Below are positions 47 through 4,059 of a DNA stretch of 4,059 bases, piece by piece. Both the position numbers and the translations under genes were made by a program. Origin of the DNA: a virus (Duplodnaviria; Heunggongvirae; Uroviricota; Caudoviricetes); IMG/VR virus record IMGVR_UViG_2681813315_000026; one strand, given 5' to 3'. The notes beneath the pieces were generated by a model. That model did no database searches. It saw nothing but the letters and a program-made list of their open reading frames with translations, and was not told where the DNA came from. The number at the start of each line of letters is the position of its first letter. Position 1 is the stretch's first letter.

Positions 47-61
47 GCTTTTTTATACTAA
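47..61. other. attL common core (O) of the lambda site-specific recombination site
   Basis: Exact 15-bp core GCTTTTTTATACTAA read directly at 47-61, followed by GTTGGCATTATAAAAAAGC, which is characteristic of the phage P' side. Confidence 0.85.
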
Positions 62-140
62 GTTGGCATTATAAAAAAGCATTGCTTATCAATTTGTTGC
101 AACGAACAGGTCACTATCAGTCAAAATAAAATCATTATTT
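62..140. promoter_or_regulatory. attL P' arm with IHF site H' and Int arm-type binding sites
   Basis: TATCAATTTGTTG at 88-100 fits the IHF consensus WATCAANNNNTTR. Tandem arm-type Int sites AGGTCACTAT (108-117) and CAGTCAAAAT (118-127) are followed by a weaker third copy. The int stop codon (135-137) lies inside this arm, as in lambda. Confidence 0.7.
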
Positions 141-1205
141 GATTTCAATTTTGTCCCACTCCCTGCCTCTGTCATCACGATACTGTGATGCCATGGTGTC
201 CGACTTATGCCCGAGAAGATGTTGAGCAAACTTATCGCTTATCTGCTTCTCATAGAGTCTTGCAGACAAACTGCGCAACTCGTGAAAGGTAGGCGGATCC
301 CCTTCGAAGGAAAGACCTGATGCTTTTCGTGCGCGCATAAAATACCTTGATACTGTGCCGGATGAAAGCGGTTCACGACGAGTAGATGCAATTATGGTTT
401 CTCCGCCAAGAATCTCTTTGCATTTATCAAGTGTTTCCTTCATTGATATCCCGAGAGCATCAACATGCAATGTTGTAGGGATGGCAATTTTTACGCCTGT
501 TTTGCTTTGTTCGACATAAAGATATCCATCTACGATATCAGACCACTTCATTTCGCATAAATCACCAACTCGCTGCCCGGTAACAACAGCCAGTTCCATT
601 GCAAGTCTGAGCCAACATGGTGATGATTCTGCAGCTTGATAAATTTTCAGGTATTCGTCAGCCGTAAGTCTTGATCTCCTTACCTCTGATTTTGCTGCGC
701 GAGTGGCAGCGACCGGGTTTGTTGTTATATGGCCTTCAGCTATTGCCTCTCGGAATGCATCGCTCAGTGTTGATCTGATTAACTTGGCTGACGCCGCCTT
801 GCCCTCGTCTATGTATCCATTGAGCATTGCCGCAATTTCTTTTGTGGTGATGTCTTCAAGTGGAGCATCAGGCAGCCCCCTCCTTATTGCTTTAATTTTG
901 CTCATGTAATTTATGAGTGTCTTCTGCTTGATTCCTCTGCTGGCGAGGATTTTTTCGTAGCGATCAAGCCATGAATGTAACGTAACAGAATTATCACTGT
1001 TGATTCTCGCTGTCAGAGGCTTGTGTTTGTGTCCTGAAAATAACTCAATATTGGCCTGTATTGCTTCAGTGATTGCTATCCTCCTGTCTCGGCCTAAACC
1101 AAACTCTTTACCCGTCCTTGGGTCCCTGTAGCAGTAATATCCATTGTTTCTTATATAAAGGTTAGGGGGTAAATCCCGGCGCTCATGACTTCGCCTTCTT
1201 CCCAT
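135..1205 (-). CDS. int: Tyrosine site-specific integrase (lambda Int)
   Basis: 356-aa ORF whose translation I recognise as lambda Int along its whole length (N-terminal arm-binding MGRRRSHERRDLPPNLYIRNNGYYCYRDP, C-terminal catalytic region ending HELRSLSARLYEK...HLLGHKSDTMASQYRDDRGREWDKIEIK). It sits next to attL and its 5' end overlaps xis by 23 nt. Confidence 0.97.
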   Translation of the reverse strand: MGRRRSHERRDLPPNLYIRNNGYYCYRDPRTGKEFGLGRDRRIAITEAIQANIELFSGHKHKPLTARINSDNSVTLHSWLDRYEKILASRGIKQKTLINYMSKIKAIRRGLPDAPLEDITTKEIAAMLNGYIDEGKAASAKLIRSTLSDAFREAIAEGHITTNPVAATRAAKSEVRRSRLTADEYLKIYQAAESSPCWLRLAMELAVVTGQRVGDLCEMKWSDIVDGYLYVEQSKTGVKIAIPTTLHVDALGISMKETLDKCKEILGGETIIASTRREPLSSGTVSRYFMRARKASGLSFEGDPPTFHELRSLSARLYEKQISDKFAQHLLGHKSDTMASQYRDDRGREWDKIEIK

Positions 1206-1401
1206 TTCTGATCCTCTTCAAAAGGCTACCTGTTACTGGTCGATTTAAGTCAACCTTTACCGCTGATTCGTGGAACAGATACTCTCTTCCATCCTTAACC
1301 GGAGGAGGGAATATCCTGCATTCGCGCACCCATCGACGAACTGTTTCAAGGCTTCTTGGGCGTCGCTGGCGTGCGTTCCACTCCTGAAGTGTCAAGTACA
1401 T
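1183..1401 (-). CDS. xis: Excisionase (lambda Xis)
   Basis: 72-aa ORF MYLTLQEWNARQRRPRSLETVRRWVRECRIFPPPVKDGREYLFHESAVKV..., recognised as lambda Xis. Overlaps the int start by 23 nt as in lambda. Confidence 0.95.
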   Translation of the reverse strand: MYLTLQEWNARQRRPRSLETVRRWVRECRIFPPPVKDGREYLFHESAVKVDLNRPVTGSLLKRIRNGKKAKS

Positions 1402-1430
1402 CGCAAAGTCTCCGCAATTACACGCAAGAA
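1385..1430 (-). promoter_or_regulatory. pI promoter region with cII-binding TTGC-N6-TTGC repeat
   Basis: On the minus strand, TTGCGTGTAATTGCGGAGACTTTGCG ATG(xis): direct TTGC repeats spaced by 6 nt (plus coordinates 1414-1427) with a third TTGC at 1403-1406. This is the layout of cII-activated promoters, positioned so that transcripts start at or within the 5' end of xis and express int. Exact -10 and start site not determined. Confidence 0.65.
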
Positions 1431-1449
1431 AAAGCCGCCATCAGGCGGC
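1425..1449 (-). terminator. Candidate intrinsic terminator at the end of the 55-aa ORF
   Basis: Minus-strand GCCGCC-TGAT-GGCGGC (6-bp all-GC stem, 4-nt loop) immediately followed by TTTTTCTTG. The stop codon of the 55-aa ORF lies in the loop. The U-tract overlaps the cII site of pI. Confidence 0.5.
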
Positions 1450-1608
1450 TTGGTGTTCTTTCAGTTCTTCAATTCGAATATTGGTTATGTCTGCATGTGC
1501 TATCTGCGCCCATATCATCCAGTGGTCATAGCAGTCATTGATGTTCTCTGCTTCGATAACTCTGTTGAATGGTTCTCCATTCCATTCACCTGTGACTCGG
1601 AAGTGCAT
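1441..1608 (-). CDS. Hypothetical 55-aa protein (lambda orf55 equivalent)
   Basis: Not in the supplied ORF track (under 60 aa). ATG at 1608 to TGA at 1441 translates to MHFRVTGEWNGEPFNRVIEAENINDCYDHWMIWAQIAHADITNIRIEELKEHQAA. It starts 39 nt beyond xis, the spacing and size I recall for the annotated 55-codon ORF next to xis in lambda. Confidence 0.6.
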   Translation of the reverse strand: MHFRVTGEWNGEPFNRVIEAENINDCYDHWMIWAQIAHADITNIRIEELKEHQAA

Positions 1609-1646
1609 TTATCATCTCCATAAAACAAAACCCGCCGTAGCGAGTT

Positions 1647-1678
1647 CAGATAAAAGAAATCCTCGTCAGTGCGAGGAT
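1647..1678 (-). terminator. Weak candidate hairpin plus U-rich tract at the left edge of the AT-rich island
   Basis: Minus-strand ATCCTCG-CACTGA-CGAGGAT (7-bp stem, plus 1659-1678) followed by TTCTTTTATCTG. Could stop leftward transcription before it enters orf55/xis/int. Sequence-only call. Confidence 0.3.
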
Positions 1679-1825
1679 GCTGTTCATTGCTGCTATACAC
1701 TTTTTTGCTCTCAACGTAAGCGGTAGCTCATTCTGTTGGGTTGGTGCAGTTGCTTTTAGGAAATGCTATTTACCCCTTAAACGTCGGCTGAAAGAGCTAA
1801 AATCCATGCAAAAAATTTACGCAAT

Positions 1826-1838
1826 TTTGTGTATTATT
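1826..1838 (+). promoter_or_regulatory. Candidate extended -10 promoter element for the island ORF
   Basis: TGgTATTAT at 1829-1837 (TGn + TATTAT) in an AT-rich stretch upstream of the 200-aa ORF. A second TGcTATTTA lies at 1764-1772. No convincing -35 for either. Speculative. Confidence 0.25.
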
Positions 1839-1850
1839 GTGCAGTAAGTA

Positions 1851-2453
1851 ATGAGCTATTTTCTGCGCAAAAAATGGATGGTAAATTTGTCCGGGGCAGG
1901 AAAAATTTTATGGGCGCTAAACATGAAAAAAGATTCGTATCCTTATTTGATTTGCATGACAGTTTCAGGCCTGATCTTTATTTTCTTTTTCTTCTGGTGG
2001 CGGGCAGATATTTACAGGGTCACGTTTCTTAATCAGAGTATATCCCACTATTACATTCTGTTTAGCATGGGAATAGCTTTTCTGTTATCTCTGTTTTGGG
2101 TTAAGAAGGGGATAGTAAAACAAAGCGGCTGGAAGAGTCTGTCAGCATACCTTAAGGTTTATGCAGGGATGTGCATATTTGCTGGATTTTTTCTGATTAT
2201 ACCCCTTACAACACTAACTTATTTTTTGCCTGGAGAGACATCGTCTTATGTTGCACCGTATCGGTATACTTCCGGTAGTTCAAAAAGTTGTTCTGGAGCT
2301 GAGGTGGATGACCCCGATCTACATGAGAATATTCGCATTTGCTATCCGTATGGCAATTATGAGTACGATAATATTATCTATGTTGAAAAGAAAATTAATA
2401 CATTAGGTGCGGTAGTAACATATGCACAGACCGCGCGTGATGATACTGAATGA
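1851..2453 (+). CDS. Predicted integral membrane protein of unknown function (moron-type accessory gene), three TM helices plus a roughly 75-aa C-terminal domain
   Basis: 200-aa ORF on the strand opposite to every other gene here. Three long hydrophobic segments (YPYLICMTVSGLIFIFFFFWW; ISHYYILFSMGIAFLLSLFWV; VYAGMCIFAGFFLIIPLTTLTYFL) with basic residues in the presumed cytoplasmic loops (MKKDS, KKGIVKQSGWK). The C-terminal domain is acidic and Tyr-rich with two Cys. Local base composition is visibly AT-rich compared with int and exo. The start is uncertain: in-frame ATGs at 1851, 1878 and 1923, none with a strong SD; M at 1923 (MKKDSYPYL...) would give 176 aa. Confidence 0.6.
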   Translation: MSYFLRKKWMVNLSGAGKILWALNMKKDSYPYLICMTVSGLIFIFFFFWWRADIYRVTFLNQSISHYYILFSMGIAFLLSLFWVKKGIVKQSGWKSLSAYLKVYAGMCIFAGFFLIIPLTTLTYFLPGETSSYVAPYRYTSGSSKSCSGAEVDDPDLHENIRICYPYGNYEYDNIIYVEKKINTLGAVVTYAQTARDDTE

Positions 2454-2487
2454 GATAGTATATAGCGGGCAAGTTTTAGTTAATTTA

Positions 2488-2511
2488 TCGAGGTAATATA
2501 ATTTACCTCGA
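2488..2511. terminator. Perfect 9-bp inverted repeat between the convergent gene ends, possible terminator
   Basis: TCGAGGTAA (2488-2496), loop TATAAT, TTACCTCGA (2503-2511), 35 nt past the stop of the 200-aa ORF. Flanks are A/T-rich on both strands (plus side CTCGTTTATT), but there is no clean U-run. Confidence 0.4.
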
Positions 2512-2663
2512 CTCGTTTATTCTGGTATTAATATTTCGCTTTACGATCGATTTTTATCTGATGATATTATGCGGTTTTCATATACTGACTTACTGTCTTT
2601 TCTCCGTTAGCGATTTTCTCCTGCTCAGCGATGATTTTATCTTTGGCTTCTAGTTAATTTCGC

Positions 2664-2885
2664 TCACTTCGAACCTCTCTGTTTACTGATAAGTTCCAGA
2701 TCCTCCTGGCAACTTGCACAAGTCCGACAACCCTGAACGGCCAGGCGTCTTCGCTCATCTATGGGATCGCCACACTCACAACAATGAGTGGCAGATATAG
2801 CCTGGTGGTTCAGGCGGCGTATTTTTATTGCTGTGTTGCGCTGTAATTCTTCAATTTCTGATGCTGAATCAATGATGTCTGCCAT
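2664..2885 (-). CDS. TraR/DksA-family C4 zinc-finger protein (phage TraR-like, orf73-type)
   Basis: 73-aa ORF with the C-x2-C-x17-C-x2-C motif (CCECGDPIDERRRLAVQGCRTCASC). It aligns by eye with plasmid F TraR (CEACGNPIPEARRKIFPGVTLCVEC). Size and position match the TraR-like small protein reported for the exo-xis region of lambdoid phages. Confidence 0.85.
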   Translation of the reverse strand: MADIIDSASEIEELQRNTAIKIRRLNHQAISATHCCECGDPIDERRRLAVQGCRTCASCQEDLELISKQRGSK

Positions 2886-2937
2886 CTTCCATTAATCCCT
2901 GAATTGTTGGTTAATACGCTTGAGGGTGAATGCGAAC

Positions 2938-2962
2938 AATAAAAAAGGAGCCTGTAGCTCCC
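2938..2962 (-). terminator. Weak candidate intrinsic terminator between the 71-93 aa ORF and the TraR-like gene
   Basis: Minus-strand GGAGC-TACAG-GCTCC followed by TTTTTTATT. The stem is only 5 bp, so it is marginal. Confidence 0.3.
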
Positions 2963-2983
2963 TGATGATTTTGCTTTTCATGC

Positions 2984-3265
2984 TCACCGTTCCTTAAAGA
3001 CGCCGTTTAACATGCCGATCGCCAGGCTTAAATGAGTCGGTGTGAATCCCATCAGCGTTACCGTTTCGCGGTGCTTCTTCAGTACGCTACGGCAAATGTC
3101 ATCGACGTTTTTATCCGGAAACTGCTGTCTGGCTTTTTTGATTTCAGAATTAGCCTGACGGGCAATACTGCGAAGGGCGTTTTCTTGCTGAGGTGTCATT
3201 GAACAAGTCCCATGTCGGCAAGCATAAGCACACAGAATATGAAGCCCGCTGCCAGAAAAATGCAT
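2984..3265 (-). CDS. Hypothetical small protein in the exo-xis region (orf61 position), 93 aa from the first ATG or 71 aa from ATG at 3199
   Basis: ORF in the supplied track. The first ATG (3265) is 10 nt downstream of the orf63 stop and has no SD. The internal ATG at 3199 (MTPQQENALRSIARQ...) has GGGA 8 nt upstream. No motif recognised. It does not fit the lambda orf61 geometry as I recall it (61 aa overlapping orf63 by 20 nt): that frame gives only 9 codons here. Confidence 0.5.
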   Translation of the reverse strand: MHFSGSGLHILCAYACRHGTCSMTPQQENALRSIARQANSEIKKARQQFPDKNVDDICRSVLKKHRETVTLMGFTPTHLSLAIGMLNGVFKER

Positions 3266-3275
3266 TCAGTGGTTG

Positions 3276-3467
3276 TCATACCAGGTCTCTCTCATCTGCT
3301 TCTGCTTTCGCCACCATCATTTCCAGCTTTTGCGAAAGGGATGTGGCTAACGTATGAAATTCTTCGTCTGTTTCTACTGGTATTGGCACAAACCTGACTC
3401 CAATTTGAGCAAGGCTATGTGCCATCTCAATACTCGTTCTTAACTCAACAGGAGATGCTTTGTGCAT
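3276..3467 (-). CDS. orf63: Lambda Orf63-like small protein
   Basis: 63-aa ORF with a strong SD (GGGAGG 4-5 nt before the ATG). It overlaps the next gene by 28 nt. Size, overlap and position next to orf60a/exo match lambda orf63. Sequence identity not verified. Confidence 0.75.
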   Translation of the reverse strand: MHKASPVELRTSIEMAHSLAQIGVRFVPIPVETDEEFHTLATSLSQKLEMMVAKAEADERDLV

Positions 3468-3618
3468 ATCGCCTCCCGTTTATTATTTATCTCCTCAGCC
3501 AGCCGCTGGGCTTTCAGTGGATTTTGGATAACAGAAAGGCCGGGAAATACCCAGCCTCGCTTTGTAACGGAGTAGACGAAAGTGATCGCACCTACCCGGA
3601 TATTATCGTGAGGATGCG

Positions 3619-3622
<4 letters not shown>
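3440..3622 (-). CDS. orf60a: Lambda Orf60a-like small protein
   Basis: The ORF track starts at 3628 (MAMTHPHD..., 62 aa). Starting at the second Met (3622) gives 60 aa, with the ATG overlapping the exo stop as ATGA, which is the lambda arrangement. Confidence 0.7.

Positions 3623-4059
<437 letters not shown>

What the first reader, a model, noticed from the sequence alone, without database searches (positions are those of the whole stretch)
1609..2663. AT-rich opposite-strand island with a 3-TM membrane protein where lambda has ea8.5 and ea22
The conserved lambda-like blocks (int-xis-orf55 on the left, TraR-like to exo on the right) are all leftward. Between them sits about 1 kb of visibly AT-rich DNA carrying a single 200-aa gene on the opposite strand, with its own candidate promoter elements and a downstream perfect 9-bp hairpin. 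That is the standard architecture of a phage moron expressed from the prophage independently of pL. The product looks like an inner-membrane protein with three TM helices and a C-terminal domain of about 75 aa (acidic, Tyr-rich, two Cys, plausibly periplasmic by the positive-inside rule). That topology recurs in superinfection-exclusion and abortive-infection proteins, but I recognise no known family, so function is unassigned.
Basis: partly seen in the sequence, partly recalled or inferred. Interest (0 to 1): 0.8.

Follow-up and report, generated by a model that had tools for sequence, protein, structure and literature searches.

The report
Prophage cargo gene for membrane protein
A self-contained, AT-rich gene cassette in a lambda-like prophage encodes a conserved but uncharacterised inner-membrane protein; it is also common cargo in the anti-phage hotspot of P2-like prophages, so it is a good untested candidate for a protein that keeps other phages out.

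Summary
Window 1679-2651 (37.8% GC; flanks 45-48%) replaces the lambda segment that carries ea8.5 and ea22. It holds one rightward gene among leftward genes. The island is 99.7% identical to phage 434, where the gene is annotated 'putative membrane protein', and at least 80% of it is present in 905 of 5426 complete E. coli genomes.

The real product is almost certainly 176 aa, starting at Met25 (nt 1923), not 200 aa. It has three transmembrane helices, predicted N-in/C-out, and a conserved five-stranded beta domain with two near-invariant cysteines. It is under purifying selection (dN/dS about 0.1).

It belongs to a small gammaproteobacterial family with no Pfam, NCBIfam or PADLOC match and no informative fold match. 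Homologues at 50-78% identity sit in the gpQ-gpA anti-phage hotspot of P2-like prophages. One is listed, described only as '3 TM', in Rousset et al. 2022 but is absent from their table of tested systems. More distant homologues are solitary chromosomal genes.

A 775-bp cassette (conserved extended -10 promoter, gene, hairpin) is shared by the two phage types.

Function is untested. My best guess (about 0.4) is a prophage-expressed exclusion protein acting at the periplasmic face of the inner membrane. It is unrelated in sequence to P22 SieA or HK97 gp15.

The parts
1679..2651 (.). AT-rich island (37.8% GC) that replaces the lambda segment carrying ea8.5 and ea22
   Evidence: BLAST breakpoints against lambda NC_001416 with lambda annotation; GC content
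1786..2560 (+). Mobile cassette (upstream control region, gene, hairpin) shared at 76% DNA identity with the gpQ-gpA hotspot of E. coli P2-like prophages
   Evidence: blastn of L045 against the window; alignments A5 and A6
1816..1844 (+). Three direct repeats of a TTGTGCA-like motif with a period of about 10 bp. They are perfect in a Salmonella P2-type locus and degenerate here. The phage 434 record annotates part of this (1827-1840) as a CII-site consensus. The binding factor is unknown.
   Evidence: Alignments A4 and A5; OL657226 annotation; coordinates
1859..1864 (+). -35-like hexamer TTTTCT, invariant in the lambdoid and P2-type loci, 17 nt upstream of the -10
   Evidence: Alignment A5; coordinates
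1879..1887 (+). Extended -10-like element TGGTAAATT (TGnTAAATT), invariant in the lambdoid and P2-type loci and recognisable in Cedecea and Klebsiella chromosomal copies. It implies a transcription start near 1894-1896.
   Evidence: Alignments A4 and A5; coordinates. The tool's promoter scan did not list it because the -35 is weak.
1851..1922 (+). 24-codon N-terminal extension of the 200-aa ORF call; probably not translated
   Evidence: Distant homologues begin at Met25. Salmonella loci read ATG-TAG here. The extension is broken in 3 lambdoid copies whose 176-aa ORF is intact. It lies upstream of the inferred transcription start.
1923..2453 (+). Gene for the 176-aa membrane protein (stop codon included)
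   Evidence: ORF list; homologue alignment; dN/dS 0.08-0.14; 63 of 64 lambdoid-borne copies full length
1938..2225 (+). Three transmembrane helices (aa 6-26, 43-61, 80-101). The short loop between TM1 and TM2 (conserved IYRxTFL) is predicted periplasmic. The loop between TM2 and TM3 is lysine-rich and predicted cytoplasmic.
   Evidence: Hydropathy; AlphaFold2 helices 5-29, 38-61, 70-101; loop net charge +2 to +5 in all 22 homologues
2226..2429 (+). C-terminal five-stranded beta domain (aa 102-169), predicted periplasmic and the best conserved part of the protein. Two cysteines (aa 123 and 140; nt 2289-2291 and 2340-2342) are invariant in alignment A1 and at least 90% conserved in A2. Motif: CSGAxVxDPxL...IRICYPxGxY...YVEKRSNxLGxVV.
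   Evidence: Alignments; domain model pLDDT 89.9; mean pairwise identity 0.62 against 0.32-0.35 for TM2 and TM3
2488..2511 (+). Perfect 9-bp hairpin 35 nt after the stop codon; a possible but weak terminator (U-tract CUCGUUUAUU)
   Evidence: Terminator scan; fold -12.9 kcal/mol, z = -3.1. In the E. coli P2 copies it has one compensatory change, one wobble and one mismatch, and z is only -0.9.
1628..1678 (-). Two tandem leftward terminator hairpins in the lambda-like flank, with the island's left breakpoint at their edge. This is context, not part of the cassette.
   Evidence: Terminator scan; fold -21.6 kcal/mol, z = -3.6; M60848 annotates 't-L4' at the position corresponding to about window 1652-1682

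Best explanation
Window 1786-2560 is a self-contained accessory cassette (a 'moron'). In this lambda-like prophage it lies within a 973-bp replacement of the ea8.5-ea22 segment.

It encodes a 176-aa inner-membrane protein. The N-terminus is in the cytoplasm, there are three transmembrane helices, and the conserved first loop plus a roughly 70-aa beta domain, probably disulfide-bonded, face the periplasm.

The gene points against the leftward early (pL) transcription unit and has its own weak -35 / extended -10 sigma-70-type promoter. I infer that it is made in the repressed lysogen and is opposed by convergent pL transcription during lytic growth.

The most likely role is to protect the lysogen against incoming phages, as a single protein acting at the periplasmic face of the inner membrane to stop genome entry. 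That is the working mode of P22 SieA and HK97 gp15, although this protein is related to neither. Because the periplasmic domain is the most conserved part, I favour binding to a conserved host entry component or a conserved part of the phage ejection apparatus, not to a fast-evolving phage protein.

Shown: the anatomy, the conservation, the mobility between phage types and the hotspot location of homologues. Inferred: expression in lysogens, topology, the disulfide and the exclusion function.
For: Anatomy:
- Clean replacement relative to lambda, low GC, opposite strand.
- TTTTCT-17 nt-TGnTAAATT is invariant in the lambdoid and P2-type loci, and a hairpin follows the gene.

A real, maintained gene:
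- dN/dS 0.08-0.14.
- 63 of 64 lambdoid-borne copies in IMG/VR are full length.
- At least 80% of the island is present in 905 of 5426 complete E. coli genomes.

Topology:
- Hydropathy and positive-inside bias hold in all 22 homologues.
- The model is confident.
- Two cysteines, invariant in A1 and at least 90% conserved in A2, lie in the domain predicted to be outside.

Defence context:
- Every sampled homologue at 50-78% identity (E. coli, Salmonella, Klebsiella, Enterobacter, one metagenome contig) sits between the portal gene and gpA of a P2-like prophage.
- In IMG/VR, 14 loci are P2-like and one (L122) is another integrase-bearing prophage type.
- The backbones are very divergent (portals 33-45% identical to the reference portal).
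- That interval is the P2 anti-phage hotspot, where P2 itself carries old and tin (PMC9122126 section 10).
- A family member (51% identical) is listed in that paper's Table S5 as entry 4, with the number 470 beside it.
- It travels alone, with no conserved partner gene.

Precedents:
- P22 SieA is a 162-164-aa inner-membrane protein with three predicted TM helices that is sufficient to block DNA injection (PMC10883804).
- HK97 gp15 is a moron-encoded inner-membrane exclusion protein whose relatives are mostly chromosomal genes of Enterobacteriaceae (PMC3594210). That is the same evolutionary pattern seen here.
Against: - There is no experimental evidence of any kind. I found no paper on this protein, and it is absent from the table of systems tested in PMC9122126.
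- PADLOC has no match.
- The P2 hotspot also carries non-defence cargo such as partition systems and cytolethal distending toxin, so location alone is not proof.
- The more distant chromosomal homologues sit among ordinary metabolic and regulatory genes, not in defence islands.
- A strongly conserved periplasmic domain is not what an arms race with phage proteins would predict.
- The promoter is a conserved consensus match, not a mapped start site, and the terminator is weak.
Confidence: 0.4

Rival explanations
1. Lysogenic-conversion or envelope factor that is not anti-phage. The protein alters or protects the cell envelope, for example as an orphan immunity protein against a membrane- or periplasm-acting bacteriocin or contact-dependent toxin, or as a modulator of a host envelope process. 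Phages carry it because it raises host fitness.
For: The family has many solitary chromosomal members at fixed positions among housekeeping genes, for example the same locus in six Enterobacter species, and separate loci in Klebsiella, Cedecea/Pseudescherichia and Phytobacter/Kosakonia. The periplasmic domain is strongly conserved, as expected for a conserved host or toxin target. The P2 hotspot also holds non-defence cargo. Small inner-membrane proteins with three or four TM helices are the usual form of pore-forming colicin immunity proteins (my own knowledge, not tested here).
Against: No toxin, bacteriocin or secretion-system gene lies next to the gene in any of the contexts examined. There is no Pfam match to any immunity family. 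The phage-borne copies occupy a slot known for anti-phage genes.
Confidence: 0.3
2. Anti-phage defence by a different mechanism. The protein is a membrane effector that depolarises or permeabilises the cell on infection (abortive infection) and does not block entry.
For: It has the same hotspot context as above. Transmembrane proteins in known systems are often suicide effectors, as PMC9122126 notes.
Against: Such effectors normally come with a sensor partner, whereas this gene travels alone. The conserved part is a folded periplasmic domain, not the helices. It persists intact in many genomes, and chromosomal copies are stably inherited, which argues against a hair-trigger toxin.
Confidence: 0.12
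3. A phage-development function. Like the lambda exo-xis genes it replaces, it tunes the lysis-lysogeny decision, lysis timing or prophage induction.
For: It occupies the exo-xis region, whose lambda genes (ea8.5, ea22, orf61, orf63, orf60a) affect lysogenisation and induction (abstracts of PMC7093339 and PMC3824215).
Against: It lies on the opposite strand to the early operon and is unrelated to ea8.5 or ea22. Its homologues sit in the P2 accessory hotspot and in chromosomes without any phage, which does not fit a role tied to lambdoid development.
Confidence: 0.07
4. A spurious or decaying ORF in junk DNA left by recombination.
For: Some copies are frameshifted or called as truncated 112-aa products.
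Against: dN/dS is about 0.1 with saturated synonymous sites. Homologues are conserved down to 36% identity across Enterobacterales, and related proteins occur in Pseudomonas. The fold prediction is confident. 63 of 64 lambdoid copies are intact.
Confidence: 0.01

Closest known systems
P22 SieA (superinfection exclusion A)
   Same: A single prophage gene with its own promoter. The product is an inner-membrane protein of similar size (162-164 aa against 176 aa) with three predicted transmembrane helices, and SieA alone is sufficient to block DNA injection (PMC10883804; P22 annotation). This is the best model for how the protein here might work.
   Different: No detectable sequence relationship (hhalign probability 0.1%). 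SieA's conserved motif FxRYPxEAxxFNK is C-terminal and predicted cytoplasmic, whereas here the conserved C-terminal domain is a beta fold predicted to be periplasmic. SieA occurs only in P22-like prophages between genes 16 and 9, while this family occurs in lambdoid and P2-like prophages and in chromosomes.
HK97 gp15 (the first described moron; YebO family)
   Same: A moron with its own promoter and terminator and a GC content different from its neighbours. It is expressed from the prophage, inserts in the inner membrane and excludes phages at genome entry. Most of its homologues are non-prophage chromosomal genes of Enterobacteriaceae (PMC3594210), the same phage-plus-chromosome distribution found here.
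   Different: gp15 is 62 aa and unrelated in sequence (hhalign probability 0.7%). It sits in the tail operon, not in the exo-xis region.
Cargo of the P2 gpQ-gpA anti-phage hotspot (old, tin and the systems of Rousset et al. 2022)
   Same: Homologues at 50-78% identity occupy exactly this slot. One is listed in Table S5 of PMC9122126 as entry 4, described only as '3 TM', with the number 470 beside it.
   Different: The window's copy is in a lambdoid prophage, not in P2. The family is absent from that paper's table of tested systems and from PADLOC. The validated systems described there for this hotspot are of other kinds: a DUF4238 protein, a three-gene system without predicted domains, DprA with a phosphoribosyltransferase, and a TIR protein with transmembrane partners.
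Lambda ea8.5 and ea22 (the genes at this position in lambda)
   Same: They occupy the same interval between the 55-codon ORF and the TraR-like orf73.
   Different: They are leftward genes of the early pL operon and are unrelated in sequence. The island replaces them.
PHROG 1416
   Same: Residues 113-200 of the 200-aa call match this phage protein family at E = 2e-50.
   Different: The profile is only 90 positions long and covers TM3 plus the C-terminal domain. That probably reflects truncated gene calls such as the 112-aa form. Its function is unknown, so it adds no information.

Membership tests
Moron (Hendrix/Juhala sense: autonomous accessory unit in a phage genome) | Present as extra or replaced DNA relative to closely related phages | tested here: met
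   Window 1679-2651 replaces lambda 29356-30379, between flanks that are 97-98% identical
Moron | Base composition differs from the surrounding genes | tested here: met
   GC 0.378 against 0.448 and 0.480
Moron | Own promoter | tested here: inconclusive
   TTTTCT-17-TGnTAAATT is invariant in the lambdoid and P2 loci, but it is a consensus match. It falls below the scan's 9-of-12 threshold, and no start site has been mapped.
Moron | Own terminator | tested here: inconclusive
   Hairpin at 2488-2511, z = -3.1, but with a weak U-tract and poor conservation (z = -0.9) in the P2 copies
Moron | Expressed from the repressed prophage | not testable with these tools
   Needs RNA-seq or a reporter fusion in a lysogen
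P22 SieA family | Sequence homology to SieA types A-C, including the motif FxRYPxEAxxFNK | tested here: not met
   hhalign probability 0.1%. The motif is absent from the family consensus.
P22 SieA family | Inner-membrane protein of about 160 aa with three transmembrane helices | tested here: met
   Prediction only: hydropathy and AlphaFold2. The SieA description is from PMC10883804.
P22 SieA family | Located between the homologues of genes 16 and 9 in a P22-like prophage | tested here: not met
   Located in lambdoid exo-xis regions, P2 hotspots or chromosomes
P22 SieA family | Blocks DNA injection by superinfecting phages | not testable with these tools
   Needs plating and potassium-efflux or DNA-entry assays
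HK97 gp15 / YebO family | Sequence homology; small protein of about 60 aa | tested here: not met
   hhalign probability 0.7%. gp15 is 62 aa, whereas this protein is 176 aa with three helices.
P2 gpQ-gpA hotspot anti-phage systems (Rousset et al. 2022) | Encoded between gpA and gpQ of a P2-like prophage | tested here: not met
   Not met for the window's own copy, which is in a lambdoid prophage. Met for its homologues at 50-78% identity and for the catalogued Table S5 entry.
P2 gpQ-gpA hotspot anti-phage systems | Demonstrated protection against phages | not tested
   Absent from the table of cloned systems in PMC9122126, which is held uncut; a motif search anywhere in the files gave 0 hits there. 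No other report found.
Known defence-system proteins (PADLOC-DB 2.0) | Profile match to a catalogued defence protein | tested here: not met
   No family at E <= 1
Bacteriocin immunity proteins | Profile match to an immunity family, and a neighbouring toxin gene | tested here: not met
   No Pfam family passes its threshold. No toxin gene neighbours the gene in the contexts sampled.

The most novel reading that the evidence does not exclude
The family is a new, sequence- and fold-distinct class of single-protein exclusion factor. Its conserved periplasmic beta domain would occupy or disable a conserved inner-membrane entry step, giving cross-family protection, since it is carried by both lambdoid siphoviruses and P2-like myoviruses. 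It would have been recruited by phages from a chromosomal envelope-protein family, and it would act in about one in six sequenced E. coli strains, including O157:H7, O55:H7 and Shigella sonnei, and in the classical phage 434.
Probability: 0.3. Interest if true: 0.65.

Novelty: new member of a known kind. Interest (0 to 1): 0.45.

Why it matters
If the exclusion reading is right, a long-studied model phage (434) and roughly 17% of complete E. coli genomes carry an uncharacterised single-gene barrier to phage infection. That would matter for phage therapy, phage typing and the spread of Stx-type prophages. It would also assign a function to one of the catalogued unknowns of the P2 defence hotspot.

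The gene is small, autonomous and present in culturable phages (434, 2B8, mEp332), so the question can be tested directly with deletion and cloning experiments.

Even if it is not anti-phage, it is a clean case of one promoter-gene cassette moving between two unrelated temperate-phage backbones and having chromosomal relatives.

Tried and rejected
- 200-aa reading. Rejected in favour of 176 aa. Distant homologues start at Met25, Salmonella loci have ATG-TAG at the upstream ATG, and the extension is broken in three otherwise intact copies.
- CII-dependent promoter, as annotated in OL657226 at window 1827-1840. Doubtful: the same repeats occur in P2-type prophage loci, which as far as I know have no CII homologue (my own knowledge, not tested here), and the spacing to any -10-like hexamer does not fit a pRE-type layout. 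I found no convincing match to a known host regulator's site, so the repeats remain unexplained.
- The 56-aa upstream ORF (1677-1847, 'putative membrane protein' in the 434 record). No PHROG, Pfam or NCBIfam match, and it lies largely outside the conserved cassette.
- 'ORF-22+' of M60848 (ATG at 1910, a different frame). The ATG is not conserved in Salmonella.
- BFVD. Nothing at E <= 0.001.
- AlphaFold-database fold library. Not available.
- Ea22-like pseudogene beside the E. coli P2 copy as evidence for lambdoid-to-P2 transfer. Dropped, because the same fragment is in P2-family phage P88-4B11 without the cassette.
- Lipoprotein signal. The LIC motif is not a lipobox, and the cysteine is not conserved.
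- Rfam. No RNA family in the island.
- Literature searches by accession, for '434 lysogen' exclusion, and for recent exclusion work. No report on this protein.
Full report
**What the window is.** The window opens with bacterial DNA (1-46) joined to the lambda att core. It then carries int, xis and a 55-codon ORF, all leftward. It is a lambdoid prophage end at the lambda attachment site. In E. coli O55:H7 CB9615 the same arrangement lies next to ybhC. Across 47-3999 the window is 99.85% identical to phage 2B8. Outside a 420-bp segment (ORF114) that 434 has and the window lacks, it is 98.7-99.1% identical to phage 434.

**Checking the observation.** BLAST against lambda gives two blocks. Window 47-1678 matches lambda 27724-29355 at 97.8%, and window 2652-3999 matches lambda 30380-31728 at 97.0%. 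The island has 37.8% GC against 44.8% and 48.0% in the flanks. Its only long ORF is rightward (1851-2453), while every neighbouring gene is leftward. The perfect 9-bp hairpin is at 2488-2511. The left breakpoint sits at the edge of two strong leftward terminator hairpins (1628-1678; -21.6 kcal/mol, z = -3.6). The 1991 GenBank entry for phage 434 annotates a terminator 't-L4' at the position corresponding to about window 1652-1682.

**The island is not new sequence.** It is 99.7-99.8% identical in phages 434 and 2B8 and 98.7% in mEp332. At least 80% of it is present in 905 of 5426 complete E. coli genomes. The 2022 phage 434 record calls the product a 'putative membrane protein' (PMC9119081). 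RefSeq calls it a hypothetical protein, WP_000120060.1.

**The gene and its true start.** A search of 5.8 billion proteins found 73 relatives. The close ones are 200 aa. Every relative below about 80% identity is 169-180 aa and begins at the residue aligned with Met25. In Salmonella loci the upstream ATG is followed at once by a stop codon. In three lambdoid copies the 24-codon extension is broken while the 176-aa frame is intact. The conserved -10 element lies downstream of the upstream ATG. The product is therefore almost certainly 176 aa, from nt 1923. Nei-Gojobori estimates give dN/dS of 0.08-0.14 wherever synonymous sites are not saturated. 63 of 64 lambdoid-borne copies in IMG/VR are full length. 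This is a maintained protein-coding gene.

**The protein.**
- Hydropathy gives three transmembrane segments (aa 6-26, 43-61, 80-101).
- The N-terminus and the TM2-TM3 loop are lysine-rich. The loop's net charge is +2 to +5 in all 22 aligned homologues, and the C-terminal domain is on average slightly negative. This predicts the N-terminus inside and the C-terminus outside.
- AlphaFold2 with the family alignment gives a confident model (pLDDT 86.6, pTM 0.71): three helices, a short strand in the first loop, and a five-stranded beta domain.
- The C-terminal domain is the best conserved region (mean pairwise identity 0.62, against 0.32-0.35 for TM2 and TM3).
- It carries two cysteines on neighbouring strands that are invariant in alignment A1 and at least 90% conserved in A2. 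That fits a periplasmic disulfide, which is an inference.
- Pfam, NCBIfam and PADLOC give nothing. PHROG 1416 (unknown function) covers only the last 88 residues.

**The family and where it lives.** A profile search of 1.84 billion representative proteins found only 57 members. The full-length ones have the same architecture. They come from Enterobacterales (Escherichia, Shigella, Salmonella, Klebsiella, Enterobacter, Citrobacter, Cedecea, Phytobacter, Kosakonia, Pantoea, Erwinia, Serratia, Proteus, Providencia) and some Pseudomonas. Nearly all are named hypothetical or simply transmembrane protein. The genomic contexts are of three kinds:
1. The lambdoid exo-xis position, as in the window. 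In IMG/VR this accounts for 64 of 79 loci, all at least 97% identical.
2. The interval between the portal gene gpQ and the replication gene gpA of P2-like prophages. Every sampled homologue at 50-78% identity is here: E. coli, two Salmonella lineages, K. michiganensis, E. hormaechei and a metagenome contig. In IMG/VR, 14 loci are P2-like and one (L122) is another integrase-bearing prophage type. The backbones are very divergent, with portals 33-45% identical to the reference portal.
3. Solitary chromosomal genes among ordinary metabolic and regulatory genes, with no phage markers within 7 kb. One position is shared by six Enterobacter species, and there are other positions in Klebsiella, Cedecea/Pseudescherichia and Phytobacter/Kosakonia/Pantoea/Erwinia.

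In a neighbour-joining tree the lambdoid copy is sister to one E. coli P2 lineage. It is nested in a clade made mostly of P2-hotspot copies, with chromosomal lineages outside. Together with the near-clonality of the lambdoid copies, this suggests a recent move from a P2 hotspot into a lambdoid genome. That is an inference.

**Link to the P2 defence hotspot.** Rousset et al. 2022 showed that the gpA-gpQ interval of E. coli P2-like phages is a hotspot of anti-phage systems. P2 itself carries old and tin there. Three of eight newly cloned systems, plus the AC1 system, protected against phages, but the slot also holds partition systems and a cytolethal distending toxin (PMC9122126 section 10). Their Table S5 lists as entry 4, with the number 470 beside it, a single protein described only as '3 TM'. 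It is 51% identical to the window's protein over 168 residues. Motif searches anywhere in the supplementary files find it only in that catalogue and not in the table of cloned systems, which is held uncut. It is therefore catalogued but, as far as I can see, untested. A 2026 follow-up reports that many unknown genes in P2 and P4 hotspots are predicted to be defensive and that six of eight tested unknown P4 loci were (PMC13586616). Its supplementary files are not held.

**The mobile unit.** The E. coli P2-type locus matches window 1786-2560 at 76% DNA identity. That covers 137 bp upstream of the start codon, the gene, and 107 bp downstream including the hairpin. Salmonella P2-type loci share about 95-130 bp upstream.
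- Within the shared upstream region, TTTTCT (1859-1864), a 17-nt spacer and TGGTAAATT (1879-1887) are invariant in the lambdoid and P2 loci. A similar TGnTAAgTT is present in the Cedecea chromosomal copy. This looks like a weak -35 / extended -10 promoter that would start transcription near 1895.
- Further upstream are three TTGTGCA-like direct repeats with a period of about 10 bp (1816-1844), perfect in one Salmonella locus. The 434 annotators flagged part of this as a CII-site consensus. Its presence in P2-type prophage loci, which as far as I know lack CII (not tested here), argues for another factor, which I could not identify.
- The hairpin is significant in the window (z = -3.1) but has a poor U-tract. 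In the P2 copies it is only partly kept: one compensatory pair, one wobble, one mismatch, z = -0.9. Its terminator role is uncertain.

**How it most likely works.** Shown: an autonomous, horizontally mobile cassette, under purifying selection, encoding a membrane protein whose conserved surface is predicted to face the periplasm; and homologues that are single-gene cargo of a validated anti-phage hotspot. Inferred: the gene is expressed in the lysogen from its own promoter, is opposed by convergent pL transcription during lytic growth, and protects the lysogen from superinfection by acting at the periplasmic face of the inner membrane, where incoming genomes cross.

The best mechanistic models are P22 SieA and HK97 gp15. 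SieA is a 162-164-aa protein with three predicted TM helices that is sufficient to block injection (PMC10883804). gp15 is a moron-encoded inner-membrane protein with chromosomal relatives (PMC3594210). Membership of either family is excluded by profile comparison (probabilities 0.1% and 0.7%). Because the periplasmic domain is conserved and not diversifying, I favour a conserved target, either a host entry factor or a conserved part of the ejection machinery. I put this explanation at about 0.4.

The main rival (about 0.3) is an envelope or immunity function unrelated to phages. It is supported by the stably inherited chromosomal homologues outside defence islands. Against it, no toxin gene neighbours the gene in any context. 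A membrane abortive-infection effector (about 0.12), a role in phage development (about 0.07) and a spurious ORF (about 0.01) are less likely, for the reasons given under the rivals.

**Novelty and verdict.** The gene is already annotated in phage 434 and catalogued as an anonymous P2-hotspot entry, so the sequence is not new. The additions here are:
- the corrected gene model;
- the definition of a small, architecturally uniform family with no known relatives;
- the observation that the same promoter-gene cassette links the lambdoid exo-xis region, the P2 defence hotspot and chromosomal loci;
- a testable exclusion hypothesis.

This is a new member of a known kind: a moron-encoded inner-membrane protein and candidate exclusion factor. 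It is a solid experimental lead in a classical phage and in about one in six complete E. coli genomes, not a surprise to specialists. Interest 0.45.

Noticed in passing
window 1816-1844; L005 about 5890-5925: Three direct repeats of a TTGTGCA-like motif with a period of about 10 bp lie upstream of the promoter-like element. They are conserved between lambdoid and P2-type loci and perfect in one Salmonella locus (AAATTGTGCAAAATTGTGCAGTATTGTGCAG). The 434 record annotates part of this as a CII site, but P2-type prophages carry it too. The binding factor is unknown.
   Followed up: partly
window 1628-1678 (- strand): Two tandem leftward intrinsic terminators (-21.6 kcal/mol, z = -3.6) lie just before the 55-codon ORF, and the island's left recombination breakpoint falls at their edge. 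M60848 annotates 't-L4' at the position corresponding to about window 1652-1682.
   Followed up: partly
window 1899-2032: A short out-of-frame ORF starts at ATG 1910 with a good Shine-Dalgarno sequence (AGGA at 1899-1902). By contrast the Shine-Dalgarno sequence for the Met25 start at 1923 is poor. This is the 'ORF-22+' of the 1991 phage 434 entry. Its ATG is kept in the E. coli P2 copies but not in Salmonella. It might affect translation of the main gene.
   Followed up: partly
P0181, P0183 (112 aa); L044 3657-4232: A 112-aa form (TM3 plus the C-terminal domain, starting MKQSGWKG) is recorded on at least 1000 contigs in E. coli P2-type loci, far more than the full-length 176-aa form. At least one complete genome (RSHH22) has the gene annotated as frameshifted. 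Either many P2-borne E. coli copies are decaying, or a short form is in use.
   Followed up: partly
L044 and L045 4335-4706: A truncated ead/Ea22-like pseudogene lies directly after the cassette in E. coli P2-type hotspots, followed by parM/stbB partition genes. The same fragment is in P2-family phage P88-4B11 without the cassette, so it is resident hotspot DNA and was not carried in with the cassette.
   Followed up: yes
L007, L024-L027, L034 (Enterobacter): In Enterobacter the chromosomal homologue starts 16 nt after a LysR-type regulator gene on the same strand, so it is probably co-transcribed. It keeps this position in six species, next to a GGDEF-domain gene.
   Followed up: partly
L037 and L038 3281-6623: In Klebsiella P2-like prophages the gene shares the hotspot with an oppositely oriented pair of genes (790 aa with a weak AAA_16 match, and 279 aa) that looks like a separate candidate defence system.
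   Followed up: no
L019 (JARKOR010000073.1): A 3.5-kb contig assigned to a 'Candidatus Nanosynbacter' metagenome bin carries the cassette at 98% identity, together with the TraR-like gene. This is almost certainly an E. coli prophage fragment binned in error.
   Followed up: no
window 1401-1450, compared with L001 2400-2821: The window and phage 2B8 lack the 420-bp segment with ORF114 that phage 434 carries between xis and the 55-codon ORF. The window is therefore 2B8-type, not 434 itself. Its last 60 bases (4000-4059, inside exo) also depart from lambda, 434 and 2B8.
   Followed up: partly
window 2664-2885 (- strand): The 73-aa TraR/DksA-type zinc-finger gene just right of the island corresponds to lambda orf73. 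A paper found in the searches reports that lambda Orf73 reprograms host transcription (PMC9239242 title and abstract). The island's right breakpoint (2651/2652) lies 12 nt beyond this gene's stop codon.
   Followed up: no
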